Source: Escherichia phage WPEC5
DNA length: 64,000 bases
Direction: 5' to 3' (one strand)
Sequence record: PV654397.1
The notes under the pieces: model-generated
Told to the model about the DNA's origin: nothing
Database searches by the model: none
Seen by the model: only the letters and a program-made list of their open reading frames with translations
Shown: positions 21,638 to 24,535 of the stretch, piece after piece
Numbering within the stretch: position 1 is the stretch's first letter
Layout of the letters: each line of letters starts with the position of its first letter
Position numbers and translations under genes: made by a program

Positions 21638-22570
21638 TTAGAAATTACCTTCAGCAACTTGCATTACTTTCAACCCAAGTAGCTTACGCCACATGAATAC
21701 AACTTGTGATCTATCATCATAAACCTTTTTAACATCGTAATGATCAACCACATTTTTCATGTACAGGTCGAATTTTACAACATCATCAGGACGTTTGTCA
21801 TCGATGCCTCGCATAAACAACGCATCATAAGGAACACCCCAATTCTTAAGCCACTGTTCGGTATCAGCACGACACCCTTCAGTACGCCCACTCATGACGA
21901 TAATCTTGCGTTTATGAAAAACTGCTTCAGCGATAACAGATAAAATAACTTCTTCGTCTGGTGTATCCTGGAGTACAGTACTTTCATCGAACGGGTTACG
22001 GCCCCATTTATGAGCAAGAGTACCGTCGATATCAACGATAATAGCAGCTTCTCGTGAATTACCATAGTAACCAATGTGCAATGCTTTACTATAATAGTAC
22101 GTATCTGCCATAGTGTCAATGATATTATCTTGTACTGAACGCTCACGCTGGAGGTTATATTTCTTACAAAGTTTTACGAACTCTTTAATCTTAAAGAATT
22201 CATGAACATCTGCACCACGGTCTTCATTAGGTACAAAATCATCATAGAAGTTCTTTTCTTTGTAATCATAACCATTATCTATAGCCCATACTTTCCATAG
22301 ATTACGGAAATGTTGTTTAAGGTTCGTATCGGATATGATGATGTTCCAACCATTCTCTGCTGCTGAATTTGCTGCACTGAACTGTAAATTAGTTACGTAC
22401 TGCTCATTAGCATCGTTGAATTTGTAAGCATCATGTGAGCCAGCCATAGATTCACGAATATCATCACGGTTGATGTTGATAGTCTTGGATTTGGCTTTTT
22501 TAATCTCTTGCACTGCCCATGTAGTTTTACCACACCCAGGCAATCCAACTGTTAGTGTGATAGTTGGCAT
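21638..22570 (-). CDS. pseT: polynucleotide 5'-kinase/3'-phosphatase (T4 PseT-like)
   Basis: P-loop GLPGCGKTT; ININRDD; HAD phosphatase motif IIVDIDGTLA; C-terminus DDRSQVVFMWRKLLGLKVMQVAEGNF parallels T4 Pnk. Confidence 0.85.
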   Translation of the reverse strand: MPTITLTVGLPGCGKTTWAVQEIKKAKSKTININRDDIRESMAGSHDAYKFNDANEQYVTNLQFSAANSAAENGWNIIISDTNLKQHFRNLWKVWAIDNGYDYKEKNFYDDFVPNEDRGADVHEFFKIKEFVKLCKKYNLQRERSVQDNIIDTMADTYYYSKALHIGYYGNSREAAIIVDIDGTLAHKWGRNPFDESTVLQDTPDEEVILSVIAEAVFHKRKIIVMSGRTEGCRADTEQWLKNWGVPYDALFMRGIDDKRPDDVVKFDLYMKNVVDHYDVKKVYDDRSQVVFMWRKLLGLKVMQVAEGNF

Positions 22571-22573
22571 CCT

Positions 22574-22903
22574 TTAATCCTCTAAAAATTTAACATGCTC
22601 TATATTATGATATGTGAGCCATTCCTGTGGTGTTCCCTTGCGTATTAAAACACCAATATACGCAATACCATTAATTAGACCATTACTATCAGTATTCACA
22701 TCAACTTTCACAATCTCGGAATCGTACCAGTGTTTGAATGTGTAATCCCAACATCTGACTTTCTTTCCAATAAGATTGCTCTTGTATTTGTCAATCATTT
22801 CATCGACGATAGTTTGTACTGAATTTTTAATTTCAGCTTCTACTGACTTTATATATAGTAAATTACTTTGTGCATTGTTTATCATTGTATTTCCCAATCC
22901 CAA
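22574..22903 (-). CDS. hypothetical protein (109 aa)
   Basis: ORF track. Confidence 0.55.
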   Translation of the reverse strand: MGLGNTMINNAQSNLLYIKSVEAEIKNSVQTIVDEMIDKYKSNLIGKKVRCWDYTFKHWYDSEIVKVDVNTDSNGLINGIAYIGVLIRKGTPQEWLTYHNIEHVKFLED

Positions 22904-23099
22904 ATCGCTTGGAGATTTTCACAAGTACAGATTCATCACAACGAATACTAGCAGTATCATTGGATGAACTGTACTTTAATGGGGTCCACTGTAATTGAGA
23001 TTCTTCTAGGAACTTGATACATCTGAAATAATCTTTCAAGGAAAGAAATTTAACTACTGACATATCCTGAACAATACTATGCTGAACTTCAACTTTCAT
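22863..23099 (-). CDS. hypothetical protein (78 aa)
   Basis: ORF track. Confidence 0.45.
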   Translation of the reverse strand: MKVEVQHSIVQDMSVVKFLSLKDYFRCIKFLEESQLQWTPLKYSSSNDTASIRCDESVLVKISKRFGIGKYNDKQCTK

Positions 23100-23108
23100 A
23101 TGAACTCC

Positions 23109-23366
23109 TTATAGTGGGTCGAATTTATTTTCACGTTTCGATGTATAGCGAGTTACATCATGTATTCTCGGCTTAACACCTTTTGGTTTCCTTTTCTTCT
23201 TGTATTCAGTACTACTACACCCGAAAGTATTCTCGATTCGTTTCTTACTAATCTTCACACCTTTCTTAGAGCGTTTGTGCTGTAATTCATCGATTTCTTC
23301 TTGTATTTTCCTGAATTCTGTCGGAGAAAGGGAACCGTCATTTTTATACTTAGGTTTAGCCATCAC
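23109..23366 (-). CDS. small basic protein (85 aa)
   Basis: Lys/Arg-rich. Confidence 0.5.
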   Translation of the reverse strand: MMAKPKYKNDGSLSPTEFRKIQEEIDELQHKRSKKGVKISKKRIENTFGCSSTEYKKKRKPKGVKPRIHDVTRYTSKRENKFDPL

Positions 23367-23392
23367 TTCTCCTTGTGCTAGGCTAGATAGTA

Positions 23393-24535
23393 CTAAAAAT
23401 CCTTTAGTACAATTTTCATGTACTTAATAAGAGTCTCTTTGTAATCGACTTTCTTATTGTTGTACATTGCAAAGGCCAAGCCCTGACGATTCAGTTCATT
23501 AGTTAAACACTCCTGAACCTTCTTAGCGAATTCCTTTCGCTCCAAGTGCTTGTGTTCCTTGACGAAGCTTTCAACTTCATCTTGTAAAGCATTATAGCAC
23601 GAAAAGACTAGTTGTTCCATTCTTAATATCTTTTGGGTAGCATATTCGTCAGTACTGAACAACTGTTTTAAATCATCACTCGAACCATTTAATACAGCTT
23701 CATATAAATGGGAATCGATTATAATACTGTCTTTCGTTAAATGCAAAGAACAATACCAGTCGGTTTTGATTTTGCACATTGTACCATTATTTAGGATGCA
23801 CACAAAACCTTCAATGTCAAGCATTTTCTTAACTTCTTCAACACTTTCTTTGAATGTAGCACGAACAGGGAAAGTGTAATGAATATCTTTACCTGTCATG
23901 TTAGTACTGTACTGTGCAAGGCATGGAAACTTGTTACGTAATGCAGAACCACATAATAGTTCACCACTCTTGCGATGGCGAACGTTTAGTACAAATATTT
24001 GTTCAACCTGGTATGGTAATACAATACGGTACTCTGGACTTGTATACTCCAGATTAACAGTATAGCCCAAACGGTCTGCTTCGTCAATGTATTGATACAA
24101 ATTTTGGTTCTCATTGAGAAGACGAGTACTGTTAATCGCATGATCTGAATACAATGCAGTATGTGATTTACAACGAATTACACCATCATTATCACGGTAA
24201 GTACTGATTACTGAACCATCCAACTTAGGCATCACTACTGCAATGTCATCGAATGTGGTATCAGAAGGGAACATTGTAGCAGGATTTTCGTAAGCATTGA
24301 AGAACTTTTTCATAGTACGAGCAGCACAACGAATCATATCACCGTCTTCATCAATTTCCCACATAGAACCACGGGTTTCTAATGCATTGGGTTGCATGAA
24401 ATCGGTATATGATGCTAGACGATAACTGAATACACGATATGTTCCACCAGCAGGACTTTTATGATCCACATAAAAGAAAGCCTCACGAGTATTACATAAG
24501 TGCATTAAATCTTCATATATTTGTAAAAGGGTCAT
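23393..24535 (-). CDS. rnlA: RNA ligase 1 (T4 RnlA-like)
   Basis: EAFFYVDHKSPAGGTYRVFSYRLASY...ALETRGSMWE...KFFNAYENP closely parallels T4 Rnl1; ligase motif I MPKLDGS near residue 104. Confidence 0.9.
   Translation of the reverse strand: MTLLQIYEDLMHLCNTREAFFYVDHKSPAGGTYRVFSYRLASYTDFMQPNALETRGSMWEIDEDGDMIRCAARTMKKFFNAYENPATMFPSDTTFDDIAVVMPKLDGSVISTYRDNDGVIRCKSHTALYSDHAINSTRLLNENQNLYQYIDEADRLGYTVNLEYTSPEYRIVLPYQVEQIFVLNVRHRKSGELLCGSALRNKFPCLAQYSTNMTGKDIHYTFPVRATFKESVEEVKKMLDIEGFVCILNNGTMCKIKTDWYCSLHLTKDSIIIDSHLYEAVLNGSSDDLKQLFSTDEYATQKILRMEQLVFSCYNALQDEVESFVKEHKHLERKEFAKKVQECLTNELNRQGLAFAMYNNKKVDYKETLIKYMKIVLKDF

What the first reader, a model, noticed from the sequence alone, without database searches (positions are those of the whole stretch)
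21638..24535. tRNA-repair pair (Pnk plus Rnl1), with a possible PTH2-like gene nearby
A T4-type polynucleotide kinase/phosphatase (21,638-22,570) and RNA ligase 1 (23,393-24,535) lie about 0.8 kb apart. In T4 this pair heals and seals tRNA cleaved by host anticodon nucleases of the PrrC type. Their co-occurrence implies the host range includes strains with tRNA-targeting defences. A tentatively PTH2-like ORF (16,577-16,996) would add another tRNA-directed activity, but that assignment is weak.
Basis: partly seen in the sequence, partly recalled or inferred. Interest (0 to 1): 0.5.

Follow-up and report, generated by a model that had tools for sequence, protein, structure and literature searches.

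The report
Known phage tRNA-repair gene pair
This giant E. coli phage carries intact copies of the two classic phage T4 enzymes that mend cut transfer RNA, which is an ordinary, already annotated feature; the nearby third gene has the shape of a peptidyl-tRNA hydrolase but belongs to a separate, uncharacterised branch of that family.

The parts
23393..24535 (-). RNA ligase 1 (T4 RnlA/gp63 orthologue), 380 aa: adenylyltransferase domain plus the C-terminal Rnl1-specific domain
   Evidence: Pfam PF09511 and PF20819, phrog_562 at 2.2e-107, PDB 2c5u at 7.5e-57, and TIGR02308 above its cutoff. K104 (T4 K99), D106, G107, R55, K77, F79, E163, E242, G243, K255, K257, Y261 and D287 are conserved and invariant in 119 aligned sequences.
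21638..22570 (-). Polynucleotide 5'-kinase / 3'-phosphatase (T4 PseT/Pnkp orthologue), 310 aa
   Evidence: Pfam PF25109 at 5.8e-43 plus AAA_33, phrog_505 at 3.5e-94, PDB 1ltq at 5.8e-38. K15, T16, D36, R39 and R142 (= T4 R126), and D180, D182, T184, R191, S227, R229, K266, D285 and D286 are all conserved. Residue roles are taken from PMC3592404.
23109..23366 (-). 85-aa highly basic ORF between Rnl1 and Pnk; function unknown
   Evidence: phrog_15306 at 5e-41. A homologue (E 1e-4) occupies the same position between Rnl1 and Pnk in relative L003.
22574..23099 (-). Two further small ORFs (22863-23099 and 22574-22903) between Rnl1 and Pnk; function unknown
   Evidence: ORF list; phrog_31355 for 22574-22903; no Pfam hit. 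They were not found between the two genes in L003.
21608..21634 (-). Intrinsic-terminator-like hairpin with U-tract, starting 4 nt after the Pnk stop codon
   Evidence: dG -14.4 kcal/mol, z -3.65, 0 of 200 shuffles as good. It is identical in PBECO4. Hairpins with different stems lie at the same position in L003 (z -4.28) and CBB (z -3.73).
25809..25828 (-). Upstream intrinsic-terminator-like hairpin that bounds the 5' side of the 4.2-kb unit containing Rnl1 and Pnk
   Evidence: dG -12.9 kcal/mol, z -3.32.
16577..16996 (-). PTH2-fold protein (137-139 aa) of a divergent, uncharacterised family (phrog_3668)
15378..16580 (-). About 400-aa conserved protein of unknown function, always between the PTH2-like gene and DNA ligase
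   Evidence: phrog_14061 at 1.1e-172. Duplicated in L003; present as CBB_99. No Pfam, NCBIfam or PDB match. AF2 failed.
13948..15366 (-). ATP-dependent DNA ligase (T4 gp30-like), the downstream anchor of the syntenic module
   Evidence: Pfam PF01068, phrog_114 at 5.8e-118. The same relative position is seen in T4, L003 and CBB.
13137..13928 (-). Calcineurin-like metallophosphoesterase, conserved after DNA ligase
   Evidence: Pfam PF00149 at 5.5e-14. Homologue in L003 at 1.8e-71; CBB_102.
17499..18257 (-). NinI / lambda-phosphatase-like Ser/Thr phosphatase, immediately upstream of the zinc-finger and PTH2-like genes
   Evidence: Pfam PF00149 at 1.1e-10, phrog_246 at 3.3e-65. The same adjacency to the PTH2-like gene occurs in CBB (CBB_97/98) and fHe-Yen9-04.

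Best explanation
The two ORFs are functional orthologues of T4 Pnkp and Rnl1 and form a heal-and-seal RNA repair pathway. [quoted passage not shown] The HAD domain of Pnkp (Asp180 nucleophile, Asp182 acid-base) removes the cyclic or 3' phosphate. The P-loop kinase domain (Lys15, Asp36, Arg142) phosphorylates the 5'-OH. Rnl1 is adenylylated at Lys104 and reseals the loop, with its C-terminal domain providing tRNA specificity. The two genes probably lie in one 4.2-kb transcription unit that ends at a conserved terminator right after Pnk. What is shown here: gene identity, intact catalytic residues, conserved linkage and synteny, and predicted terminators. What is inferred from T4 biology: the substrate (tRNA) and the counter-defence role. 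The module is an ancestral trait of the RaK2/PBECO4-like jumbo phages shared with T4-like phages; it is not a recent host-specific acquisition. The nearby PTH2-fold ORF belongs to the same syntenic module. It is most likely a hydrolase acting on an ester at a tRNA 3' end, but its substrate is unknown.
For: Family assignments are strong. All catalytic residues listed for T4 Pnkp in PMC3592404 are kept and are near-invariant in 121 aligned sequences. The Rnl1 residues I recall as essential in T4 are invariant in 119 aligned sequences, query included. The Rnl1 C-terminal domain is retained (PF20819, E 2.6e-16); PMC6379707 states that this domain confers specificity for broken tRNA anticodon loops and that tRNA repair is the physiological role of T4 Rnl1. 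Linkage is conserved: T4 has rnlA, four small genes, then pseT on one strand; L003, with Rnl1 47% identical, has Rnl1, a 73-aa ORF, then Pnk; CBB has CBB_83 to CBB_87. At least 24 contig lengths are shared between the Rnl1 and Pnk hit lists. Genus counts for the two genes in the phage collection are nearly identical. Terminator-like hairpins bracket the unit, and the one after Pnk recurs in three genera with different stems. The literature treats the T4 pair as the counter to PrrC (PMC12409363).
Against: No activity, transcript or host data exist for this phage. The position of T4 Lys119 (motif Ia, which I recall as essential in T4) is His125 here. It is H/K/Q/N across the family and the adjacent invariant Lys123 (T4 K117) may substitute, but this is untested. 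Promoter-like sites are not enriched (56 against 61.5 +/- 10 in shuffles), so the start of the transcription unit is undefined. The window contains no tRNA genes and no Rfam hits. Linkage is not universal: L004, with Rnl1 42% identical, has no Pnk within 10 kb. T4 gp63 also has a second activity, tail-fibre attachment, which could contribute to retention of the gene.
Confidence: 0.75

Rival explanations
1. The Rnl1 orthologue is kept mainly for the second activity known for T4 gp63, non-enzymatic promotion of tail-fibre attachment. Pnk serves general nucleic-acid end processing, for example DNA 3'-phosphatase activity. tRNA repair would then be incidental in this phage.
For: PHROG and many GenBank records name the family 'RNA ligase and tail fiber protein attachment catalyst'. 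The module also contains a DNA ligase and other nucleic-acid enzymes.
Against: All ligase catalytic residues are invariant over 119 sequences spanning 40-94% identity to the query, which indicates selection on the enzymatic activity. The Rnl1 C-terminal domain, which confers tRNA specificity in T4, is kept. Tight and conserved pairing with Pnk, probably as a co-transcribed unit, is what a pathway predicts.
Confidence: 0.12
2. The pair performs housekeeping RNA repair or processing, for example of phage transcripts or phage-encoded tRNAs, or repair of damage caused by the phage's own nucleases. It would not be a counter-measure to a host defence.
For: [quoted passage not shown] The jumbo-phage review notes that multiple ligases probably specialise on different RNase products. 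No host anticodon nuclease was identified here.
Against: According to the papers read here, the physiological role of T4 Rnl1 is tRNA repair and the pair repairs tRNAs cleaved by PrrC. From my memory of the T4 literature, both genes are dispensable on ordinary laboratory hosts. Many tRNA-cleaving defence systems are now known in E. coli and other bacteria.
Confidence: 0.12
3. The PTH2-like ORF is a bona fide peptidyl-tRNA hydrolase that releases peptides from cleaved or stalled peptidyl-tRNA, as Iyer et al. proposed for jumbo-phage PTH2.
For: It has the PTH2 fold by two methods. 45 of 114 family members hit Pfam PTH2. The AQxxHA helix residues Gln21 and His24 are invariant. One related record annotates a peptidyl-tRNA hydrolase under the matched region (ph0011). 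The gene is adjacent to Pnk in L003 and adjacent to a tRNA nucleotidyltransferase in Rheinheimera phage Barba31A. The rationale is given in PMC7824862.
Against: It scores below the Pfam gathering score and far below the NCBIfam cutoff. The positions I recall as the canonical catalytic Lys and Asp are Gln/His (112 of 114, never Lys) and Glu (112 of 114). RCIP0023, fHe-Yen9-04, pEa_SNUABM_44 and CBB carry both this gene and a canonical Pth2, which argues for a non-redundant function. The roles of Sulfolobus Lys18 and Asp86 rest on my memory of Fromant et al. 2005, because the paper is not held here.
Confidence: 0.4
4. One or both genes are decayed, non-functional remnants.
For: His replaces T4 Lys119 in Rnl1. 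The jumbo-phage clade has an insertion of about 20 aa in the Pnk kinase domain.
Against: Both ORFs are full length with all other catalytic residues intact. Both peculiarities are shared by dozens of diverged homologues, so they are lineage traits under purifying selection and not lesions.
Confidence: 0.02

Closest known systems
Bacteriophage T4 Pnkp (pseT) and Rnl1 (rnlA, gp63), the tRNA repair pathway that counters the PrrC anticodon nuclease
   Same: The domain architectures are the same: a P-loop kinase plus a DxDxT HAD phosphatase, and an adenylyltransferase plus the Rnl1 C-terminal domain. The catalytic residues checked are the same. The local order is the same, with the ligase upstream of the kinase on one strand, a few small genes between them, and DNA ligase and dCMP deaminase further downstream.
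   Different: Identity to T4 is only about 35%: 109 of 301 residues for Pnk and 129 of 374 for Rnl1. Pnk carries an insertion of about 20 aa in the kinase domain. Rnl1 has KLDG where T4 has KEDG, and His where T4 has Lys119. The genes between the pair carry T4 annotations (alc, spanin-like pseT.2/.3) with no counterpart here; I did not compare the sequences. No PrrC/Stp context is known for this phage.
Pnk, RNA ligase and Pth2 of Klebsiella jumbo phage RaK2 (gp470, gp464, ORF188), and the equivalents in CBB and GAP32
   Same: This is the same phage supergroup. CBB, whose annotation cites a GAP32 homologue for each gene, has the same syntenic module; RaK2's layout was not examined. The published interpretation as tRNA-related enzymes is the same (PMC3622015, PMC5259590, PMC7824862).
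   Different: The Pth2 named in those papers (RaK2 ORF188, CBB_392) is a different gene from this window's ORF: 22% identity, BLASTP E 0.007. The window's ORF corresponds to CBB_98, which is annotated 'hypothetical protein'. A canonical Pth2 was found in only 2 Escherichia phage records (EJP2 is the one listed), against 31 Escherichia records of this phage's group.
Archaeal/eukaryotic peptidyl-tRNA hydrolase 2 (Pth2/Bit1; PDB 1wn2, 1xty, 2zv3, 1q7s)
   Different: Identity is 13-21%. The ORF has a C-terminal helical extension of about 40 residues. It has Gln at the position of the 'GK' lysine and 'EAGLN' in place of 'DAGxTQ'. It scores below the curated family thresholds.

Membership tests
T4-type polynucleotide kinase-phosphatase (Pnkp) | N-terminal P-loop kinase with GxxGxGK[ST]; general base Asp35; Arg38 and Arg126 (T4 numbering) | tested here: met
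   G9-T16 reads GLPGCGKT. K15, T16, D36, R39 and R142 fall in columns that are K 121/121, T/S 121/121, D 118/121, R 120/121 and R 118/121. Roles are from PMC3592404.
T4-type polynucleotide kinase-phosphatase (Pnkp) | C-terminal HAD acylphosphatase domain with the DxDxT motif, plus Ser211, Lys258, Asp277 and Asp278 | tested here: met
   D180-I-D182-G-T184, S227, K266, D285 and D286. PF25109 E 5.8e-43 against a cutoff of 27.6 bits.
T4-type polynucleotide kinase-phosphatase (Pnkp) | 5'-kinase, 3'-phosphatase and 2',3'-cyclic phosphodiesterase activity on RNA ends | not testable with these tools
   This needs a biochemical assay.
RNA ligase 1 (Rnl1 / T4 RnlA family) | Motif I KxDG with the lysine adenylylation site; motifs III, IV and V | tested here: met
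   K104-L-D-G107, E163, E242-G243 and K255-x-K257, all in columns invariant over 119 sequences.
RNA ligase 1 (Rnl1 / T4 RnlA family) | Residues of the N-terminal subdomain that contact ATP (T4 Arg54, Lys75, Phe77) | tested here: met
   R55, K77 and F79. The role of Arg54 and Lys75 is stated in PMC6379707.
RNA ligase 1 (Rnl1 / T4 RnlA family) | Motif Ia basic residue (T4 Ser118-Lys119; that it is essential in T4 is from my memory of Wang et al. 2003) | tested here: inconclusive
   The query has K123-S124-H125 where T4 has K117-S118-K119. Column 119 is H 46, K 41, Q 18, N 14; column 117 is Lys in 119/119. The fungal Trl1 motif Ia is 'SKHS'.
RNA ligase 1 (Rnl1 / T4 RnlA family) | The Rnl1-specific all-helical C-terminal domain, which confers tRNA specificity in T4 | tested here: met
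   PF20819 E 2.6e-16 over residues 268-379. TIGR02308 equivalog scores 289.4 bits, above its 242.25 cutoff.
Peptidyl-tRNA hydrolase 2 (PTH2, PF01981) | PTH2 alpha/beta fold | tested here: met
Peptidyl-tRNA hydrolase 2 (PTH2, PF01981) | Score above the curated family thresholds | tested here: not met
   Pfam 22.7 bits against a gathering score of 23.0; NCBIfam NF003314 18.1 bits against 126. Only 45 of 114 family members reach E < 0.01.
Peptidyl-tRNA hydrolase 2 (PTH2, PF01981) | Canonical active-site residues: the 'GK' Lys (Sulfolobus K18) and the 'DAG' Asp (D86). Their roles are recalled from Fromant et al. 2005, which is not held in the library. | tested here: not met
   The Lys position is Gln17 (family: Q 90, H 22, K 0 of 114). 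The Asp position is Glu83 (E 112, D 2). The mapping comes from the profile alignments to 2zv3, 24bt and 1xty. Gln21 and His24 of the AQxxHA helix are invariant.
Peptidyl-tRNA hydrolase 2 (PTH2, PF01981) | Hydrolysis of peptidyl-tRNA or N-acyl-aminoacyl-tRNA | not testable with these tools
   This needs a biochemical or complementation assay.
PrrC-type anticodon-nuclease counter-defence system | Healing and sealing enzymes both present, intact and genetically linked | tested here: met
PrrC-type anticodon-nuclease counter-defence system | Hosts of the phage carry a tRNA anticodon nuclease that the pair neutralises | not tested
   No host genome is linked to the window, and I had no prrC or rloC DNA query for the E. 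coli genome collection.

The most novel reading that the evidence does not exclude
The ORF at 16577-16996 represents a large, unrecognised family of PTH2-fold enzymes. The family has at least 1,274 representatives at 50% identity and occurs in 269 phage records. Its active site is remodelled: Gln/His in place of Lys, Glu in place of Asp, with its own invariant Gln21/His24 and near-invariant Asn10, Tyr12, Trp45 and Thr91. It is not redundant with canonical Pth2, because several jumbo phages carry both. It may be a third component of the phage tRNA rescue module. Possible roles are to strip the peptide or an acyl group from damaged or toxin-modified tRNA (for example N-acetyl-aminoacyl-tRNA made by GNAT toxins), so that the tRNA can be repaired or recharged.
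Probability: 0.2. Interest if true: 0.55.

Novelty: already known. Interest (0 to 1): 0.15.

Why it matters
The Pnk and Rnl1 pair is textbook phage biology. Finding it in yet another PBECO4/121Q-like jumbo coliphage adds nothing conceptually. It does confirm that this lineage keeps an intact tRNA heal-and-seal pathway, which is relevant when choosing phage-therapy candidates against strains that carry anticodon-nuclease defences. The more useful by-product concerns annotation. The 'PTH2-like' gene in this module is a distinct, widespread family that is variously annotated 'hydrolase', 'hypothetical' or 'peptidyl-tRNA hydrolase', and it should not be equated with canonical Pth2 without a biochemical test.

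Tried and rejected
1. I suspected that T4 Pnk Arg126 was lost, because the pairwise alignment put Gln141 there. This was rejected: in a 121-sequence alignment Arg142 occupies the Arg126 column.
2. I suspected a lesion in Rnl1 motif Ia (His125 against T4 Lys119). The position varies family-wide and the adjacent Lys is invariant, so it is a lineage trait and not decay. I could not retrieve the primary T4 mutagenesis papers.
3. I looked for tRNA genes and known RNA families in the window and found none.
4. I looked for enrichment of sigma-70 promoters and found none.
5. I looked for a second, canonical Pth2 in the window, using a mini-profile built from three solved Pth2 fragments. Only the same ORF matched, and only weakly (E 0.019).
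6. I tried to assign the neighbouring 400-aa protein. There were no Pfam, NCBIfam or PDB profile hits, and the single-sequence AlphaFold model was unusable (pLDDT 29).
7. I tried covariation analysis of the post-Pnk hairpin across four loci. The stems are out of register, so the consensus fold was uninformative. Individual folds were used instead.
8. Literature searches for the Pth2 catalytic residues found nothing usable.
9. Most of the small ORFs that flank the pair showed no detectable paralogy by BLASTP. The only pair found was 18242-18571 with 21152-21412.
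Full report
**What the window is.** Bases 16000-25500 are 99.8% identical over their full length to Escherichia phages Ecwhy_1 (MH791411) and fEgEco12 (PP777464). They are 98% identical to several other coliphages and about 88% identical to the PBECO4/121Q group, genus Asteriusvirus, whose genomes are about 350 kb. The window is AT-rich (30-37% GC) with uniformly negative GC skew, and essentially all genes are on the minus strand.

**Checking the observation.** ORFs of 310 aa (21638-22570, minus strand) and 380 aa (23393-24535, minus strand) exist exactly as described, 822 nt apart.
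- The first matches Pfam HAD_PNKP (E 5.8e-43) plus the AAA_33 kinase domain, phrog_505 'polynucleotide kinase' (3.5e-94) and the T4 Pnk crystal structure 1ltq (5.8e-38).
- The second matches Pfam RNA_lig_T4_1 and T4_Rnl1_C, phrog_562 (2.2e-107) and T4 Rnl1 structure 2c5u (7.5e-57). It exceeds the NCBIfam equivalog cutoff for 'T4 RnlA family RNA ligase' (289.4 against 242.25 bits).
- The public records of near-identical phages already call these genes polynucleotide kinase and RNA ligase.

**Catalytic residues of Pnk.** I fetched T4 pseT and rnlA and aligned them pairwise, then within 121 (Pnk) and 119 (Rnl1) aligned sequences, each counting T4 and the query. PMC3592404 names the T4 Pnkp residues: kinase Lys15, Asp35 and Arg126; phosphatase Asp165, Asp167, Ser211, Lys258 and Asp278. 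All of these are present here as K15, D36, R142, D180, D182, S227, K266 and D286. Three further residues that I list from memory are also present: Arg38 as R39, Arg176 as R191 and Arg213 as R229. The apparent loss of Arg126 in the pairwise alignment was a one-residue register error. In the family alignment that column is Arg in 118 of 121 sequences, the query included. The jumbo-phage clade carries an insertion of about 20 residues in the kinase domain (query residues about 109-131).

**Catalytic residues of Rnl1.** Lys104 (T4 Lys99, the adenylylation site), D106, G107, R55, K77, F79, E163, E242, G243, K255, K257, Y261 and D287 fall in columns that are invariant across all 119 sequences. The single deviation is His125 at the position of T4 Lys119 (motif Ia). 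That column is H 46, K 41, Q 18, N 14 across the family, while the neighbouring Lys (T4 K117, query K123) is invariant. His125 is therefore a lineage trait and not a lesion. The C-terminal domain is retained. According to PMC6379707 this domain gives T4 Rnl1 its specificity for broken tRNA anticodon loops.

**Anatomy and linkage.**
- In T4 the order on one strand is rnlA, alc, pseT.3, pseT.2, pseT.1, pseT, then cd (dCMP deaminase) and gene 30 (DNA ligase) further on.
- In the window the order is Rnl1, three small ORFs, Pnk, about 4.6 kb of small ORFs with a NinI-like phosphatase and a 75-aa zinc-finger ORF, the PTH2-like ORF, a 400-aa ORF, DNA ligase, a metallophosphoesterase and, further on, dCMP deaminase.
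- A metagenomic relative whose Rnl1 is only 47% identical (L003) has a compact version: Rnl1, a 73-aa ORF, Pnk, PTH2-like, two paralogues of the 400-aa protein, DNA ligase, a 127-aa ORF, a metallophosphoesterase, ClpP and dCMP deaminase.
- Pectobacterium phage CBB (genus Mimasvirus) has the expanded version, CBB_83 to CBB_110.
- At least 24 'longest contig' lengths are shared between the Rnl1 and Pnk homologue lists.
- A more distant jumbo phage (L004, 42% identity) lacks Pnk within 10 kb of Rnl1, so linkage is common but not universal.
- Terminator-like hairpins are about twice as frequent as in shuffles (10 against 4.3 +/- 2.2). Two strong minus-strand hairpins bracket a 4.2-kb unit containing both enzymes, at 25828-25809 and at 21634-21608.
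- The downstream hairpin begins 4 nt after the Pnk stop codon. It is identical in PBECO4 and is replaced at the same position by hairpins with different stems in L003 and CBB, each with z below -3.6.
- Promoter-like sites are not enriched.

**How common and how well known the pair is.** tblastn finds Rnl1 in 1,671 and Pnk in 2,151 of 50,697 phage records. Genus counts are nearly the same in enterobacterial, Aeromonas and Acinetobacter phages. The RaK2 genome paper (2013) lists polynucleotide kinase, RNA ligase, a CCA-adding enzyme and a Pth2 as tRNA-related functions. The CBB paper says its rnlA homologue may act in tRNA repair. Iyer et al. 2021 review Rnl1, Pnk-HAD and PTH2 across jumbo phages. 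Recent defence papers cite the T4 pair as the counter to PrrC. The finding is therefore already known. Because the pair is vertically inherited within an old syntenic module, its presence does not specifically imply that this phage's current hosts carry anticodon nucleases.

**The PTH2-like ORF: a separate family.**
- An exhaustive profile search finds 1,274 representatives.
- In 114 aligned members, Gln21 and His24 are invariant, and Tyr6, Asn10, Tyr12, Gly19, Trp45, Thr51, Gly58, Phe81, Glu83 and Thr91 are nearly so.
- Profile alignments to solved Pth2 chains put Gln21 and His24 on the canonical AQxxHA helix. The canonical 'GK' lysine corresponds to Gln17 (Q 90, H 22, never K). The Asp of 'DAGxTQ' corresponds to Glu83 (E in 112 of 114).
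- The catalytic importance of that Lys and Asp (Sulfolobus K18 and D86) is my recollection of Fromant et al. 2005. I could not retrieve the paper.
- The canonical Pth2 of RaK2 (ORF188) keeps the Lys and an Asp, and is only 22% identical to the window's ORF.
- That canonical gene occurs in 48 phage records. RCIP0023, fHe-Yen9-04, pEa_SNUABM_44 and CBB carry both genes.
- Only 2 Escherichia phage records have the canonical gene; the one listed is EJP2 and I did not identify the second. The PBECO4/121Q group comprises 31 Escherichia records.
- In the CBB paper the named Pth is CBB_392. The homologue of this window's ORF, CBB_98, is annotated as hypothetical.
- The family occurs in 269 phage records, including KVP40-like vibriophages, Aeromonas phages and PVP-SE1-like phages.

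Its position immediately after Pnk in L003, and next to a tRNA nucleotidyltransferase in Rheinheimera phage Barba31A, is weak contextual support for a tRNA-directed role. In the wider RaK2-like group the association could be plain synteny.

**Mechanism and confidence.** I am confident (about 0.85-0.9) that the two enzymes are active Pnkp and Rnl1. I am moderately confident (about 0.65-0.7) that their selected role is repair of anticodon-loop breaks made by host ribonucleases. For the PTH2-fold protein I favour an ester hydrolase acting at the tRNA 3' end (about 0.4 for classical peptidyl-tRNA hydrolase activity), with the substrate open.

**Verdict.** The feature is real, correctly identified, ordinary and already annotated and published. 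Interest is low. The only item with some novelty is the distinct PTH2-like family, which merits a biochemical test.

Noticed in passing
window 45458-57951 and 48251-55668 (plus 63574-63885), minus strand: There are two large families of paralogous ORFs, one of 12 members (about 150-210 aa each) and one of 8 members (about 105-140 aa), arranged largely in tandem. Smaller families of 2-3 members lie elsewhere in the window. Their function is unknown.
   Followed up: partly
window 16987-17214 (-): A 75-aa ORF with two CxxC pairs resembles the DnaJ / anti-TRAP zinc-finger (NCBIfam RtpA at 1.3e-5, DnaJ at 3.5e-4). It overlaps the start of the PTH2-like ORF by 10 nt, and fEgEco12 annotates it as 'chaperone protein'.
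   Followed up: partly
window 21638-22570 (-), Pnk residues about 109-131: An insertion of about 20 residues ('FVPNEDRGADVHEFFKIKEF') lies in the kinase domain. It is shared by the jumbo-phage clade but is absent from T4 and from the more distant homologues, which include MAG-derived (probably bacterial) sequences. Its structural consequence is unknown.
   Followed up: no
window 15378-16580 (-): A 400-aa protein (phrog_14061) is conserved between the PTH2-like gene and DNA ligase. It is duplicated in L003 and present as CBB_99. It has no Pfam, NCBIfam or PDB match, and the single-sequence AlphaFold model failed at pLDDT 29.
   Followed up: partly
window 13137-13928 (-) and 17499-18257 (-): Two calcineurin-like metallophosphoesterases lie in the same module as Pnk and Rnl1; one is of the lambda-phosphatase/NinI type. 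Lambda phosphatase is reported to have 2',3'-cyclic phosphodiesterase activity (PMC2190708, title and abstract seen). A role in RNA end healing is therefore conceivable, but it was not tested.
   Followed up: no
window about 4000-6900 (-), from the fEgEco12 annotation (locus L001 coordinate + 3999): A PhoH-like protein, a NUDIX hydrolase and a Sir2-like protein lie side by side. They could relate to NAD+/ADP-ribose metabolism or counter-defence. I did not examine them.
   Followed up: no
window 19049-19645 (-): A 198-aa protein has an N-terminal hydrophobic segment and a C-terminal Ser/Cys-rich tail ('SSSCDSSSSSSSGSCD'). fEgEco12 labels it, implausibly, 'ribosome biogenesis protein Nop10'.
   Followed up: no
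L003 7471-8514 and 5479-6009: In the metagenomic relative, a Gad2-family protein (PF26128; as I recall, an anti-Gabija protein) and a Dam methylase lie just upstream of Rnl1.
   Followed up: no
L004 6656-9151 and 19443-20561: A 341-kb contig that carries a distant Rnl1 encodes an adenylosuccinate synthetase interrupted by an intein with a LAGLIDADG homing endonuclease. It also encodes an IS605 OrfB / Cas12f-like TnpB.
   Followed up: no
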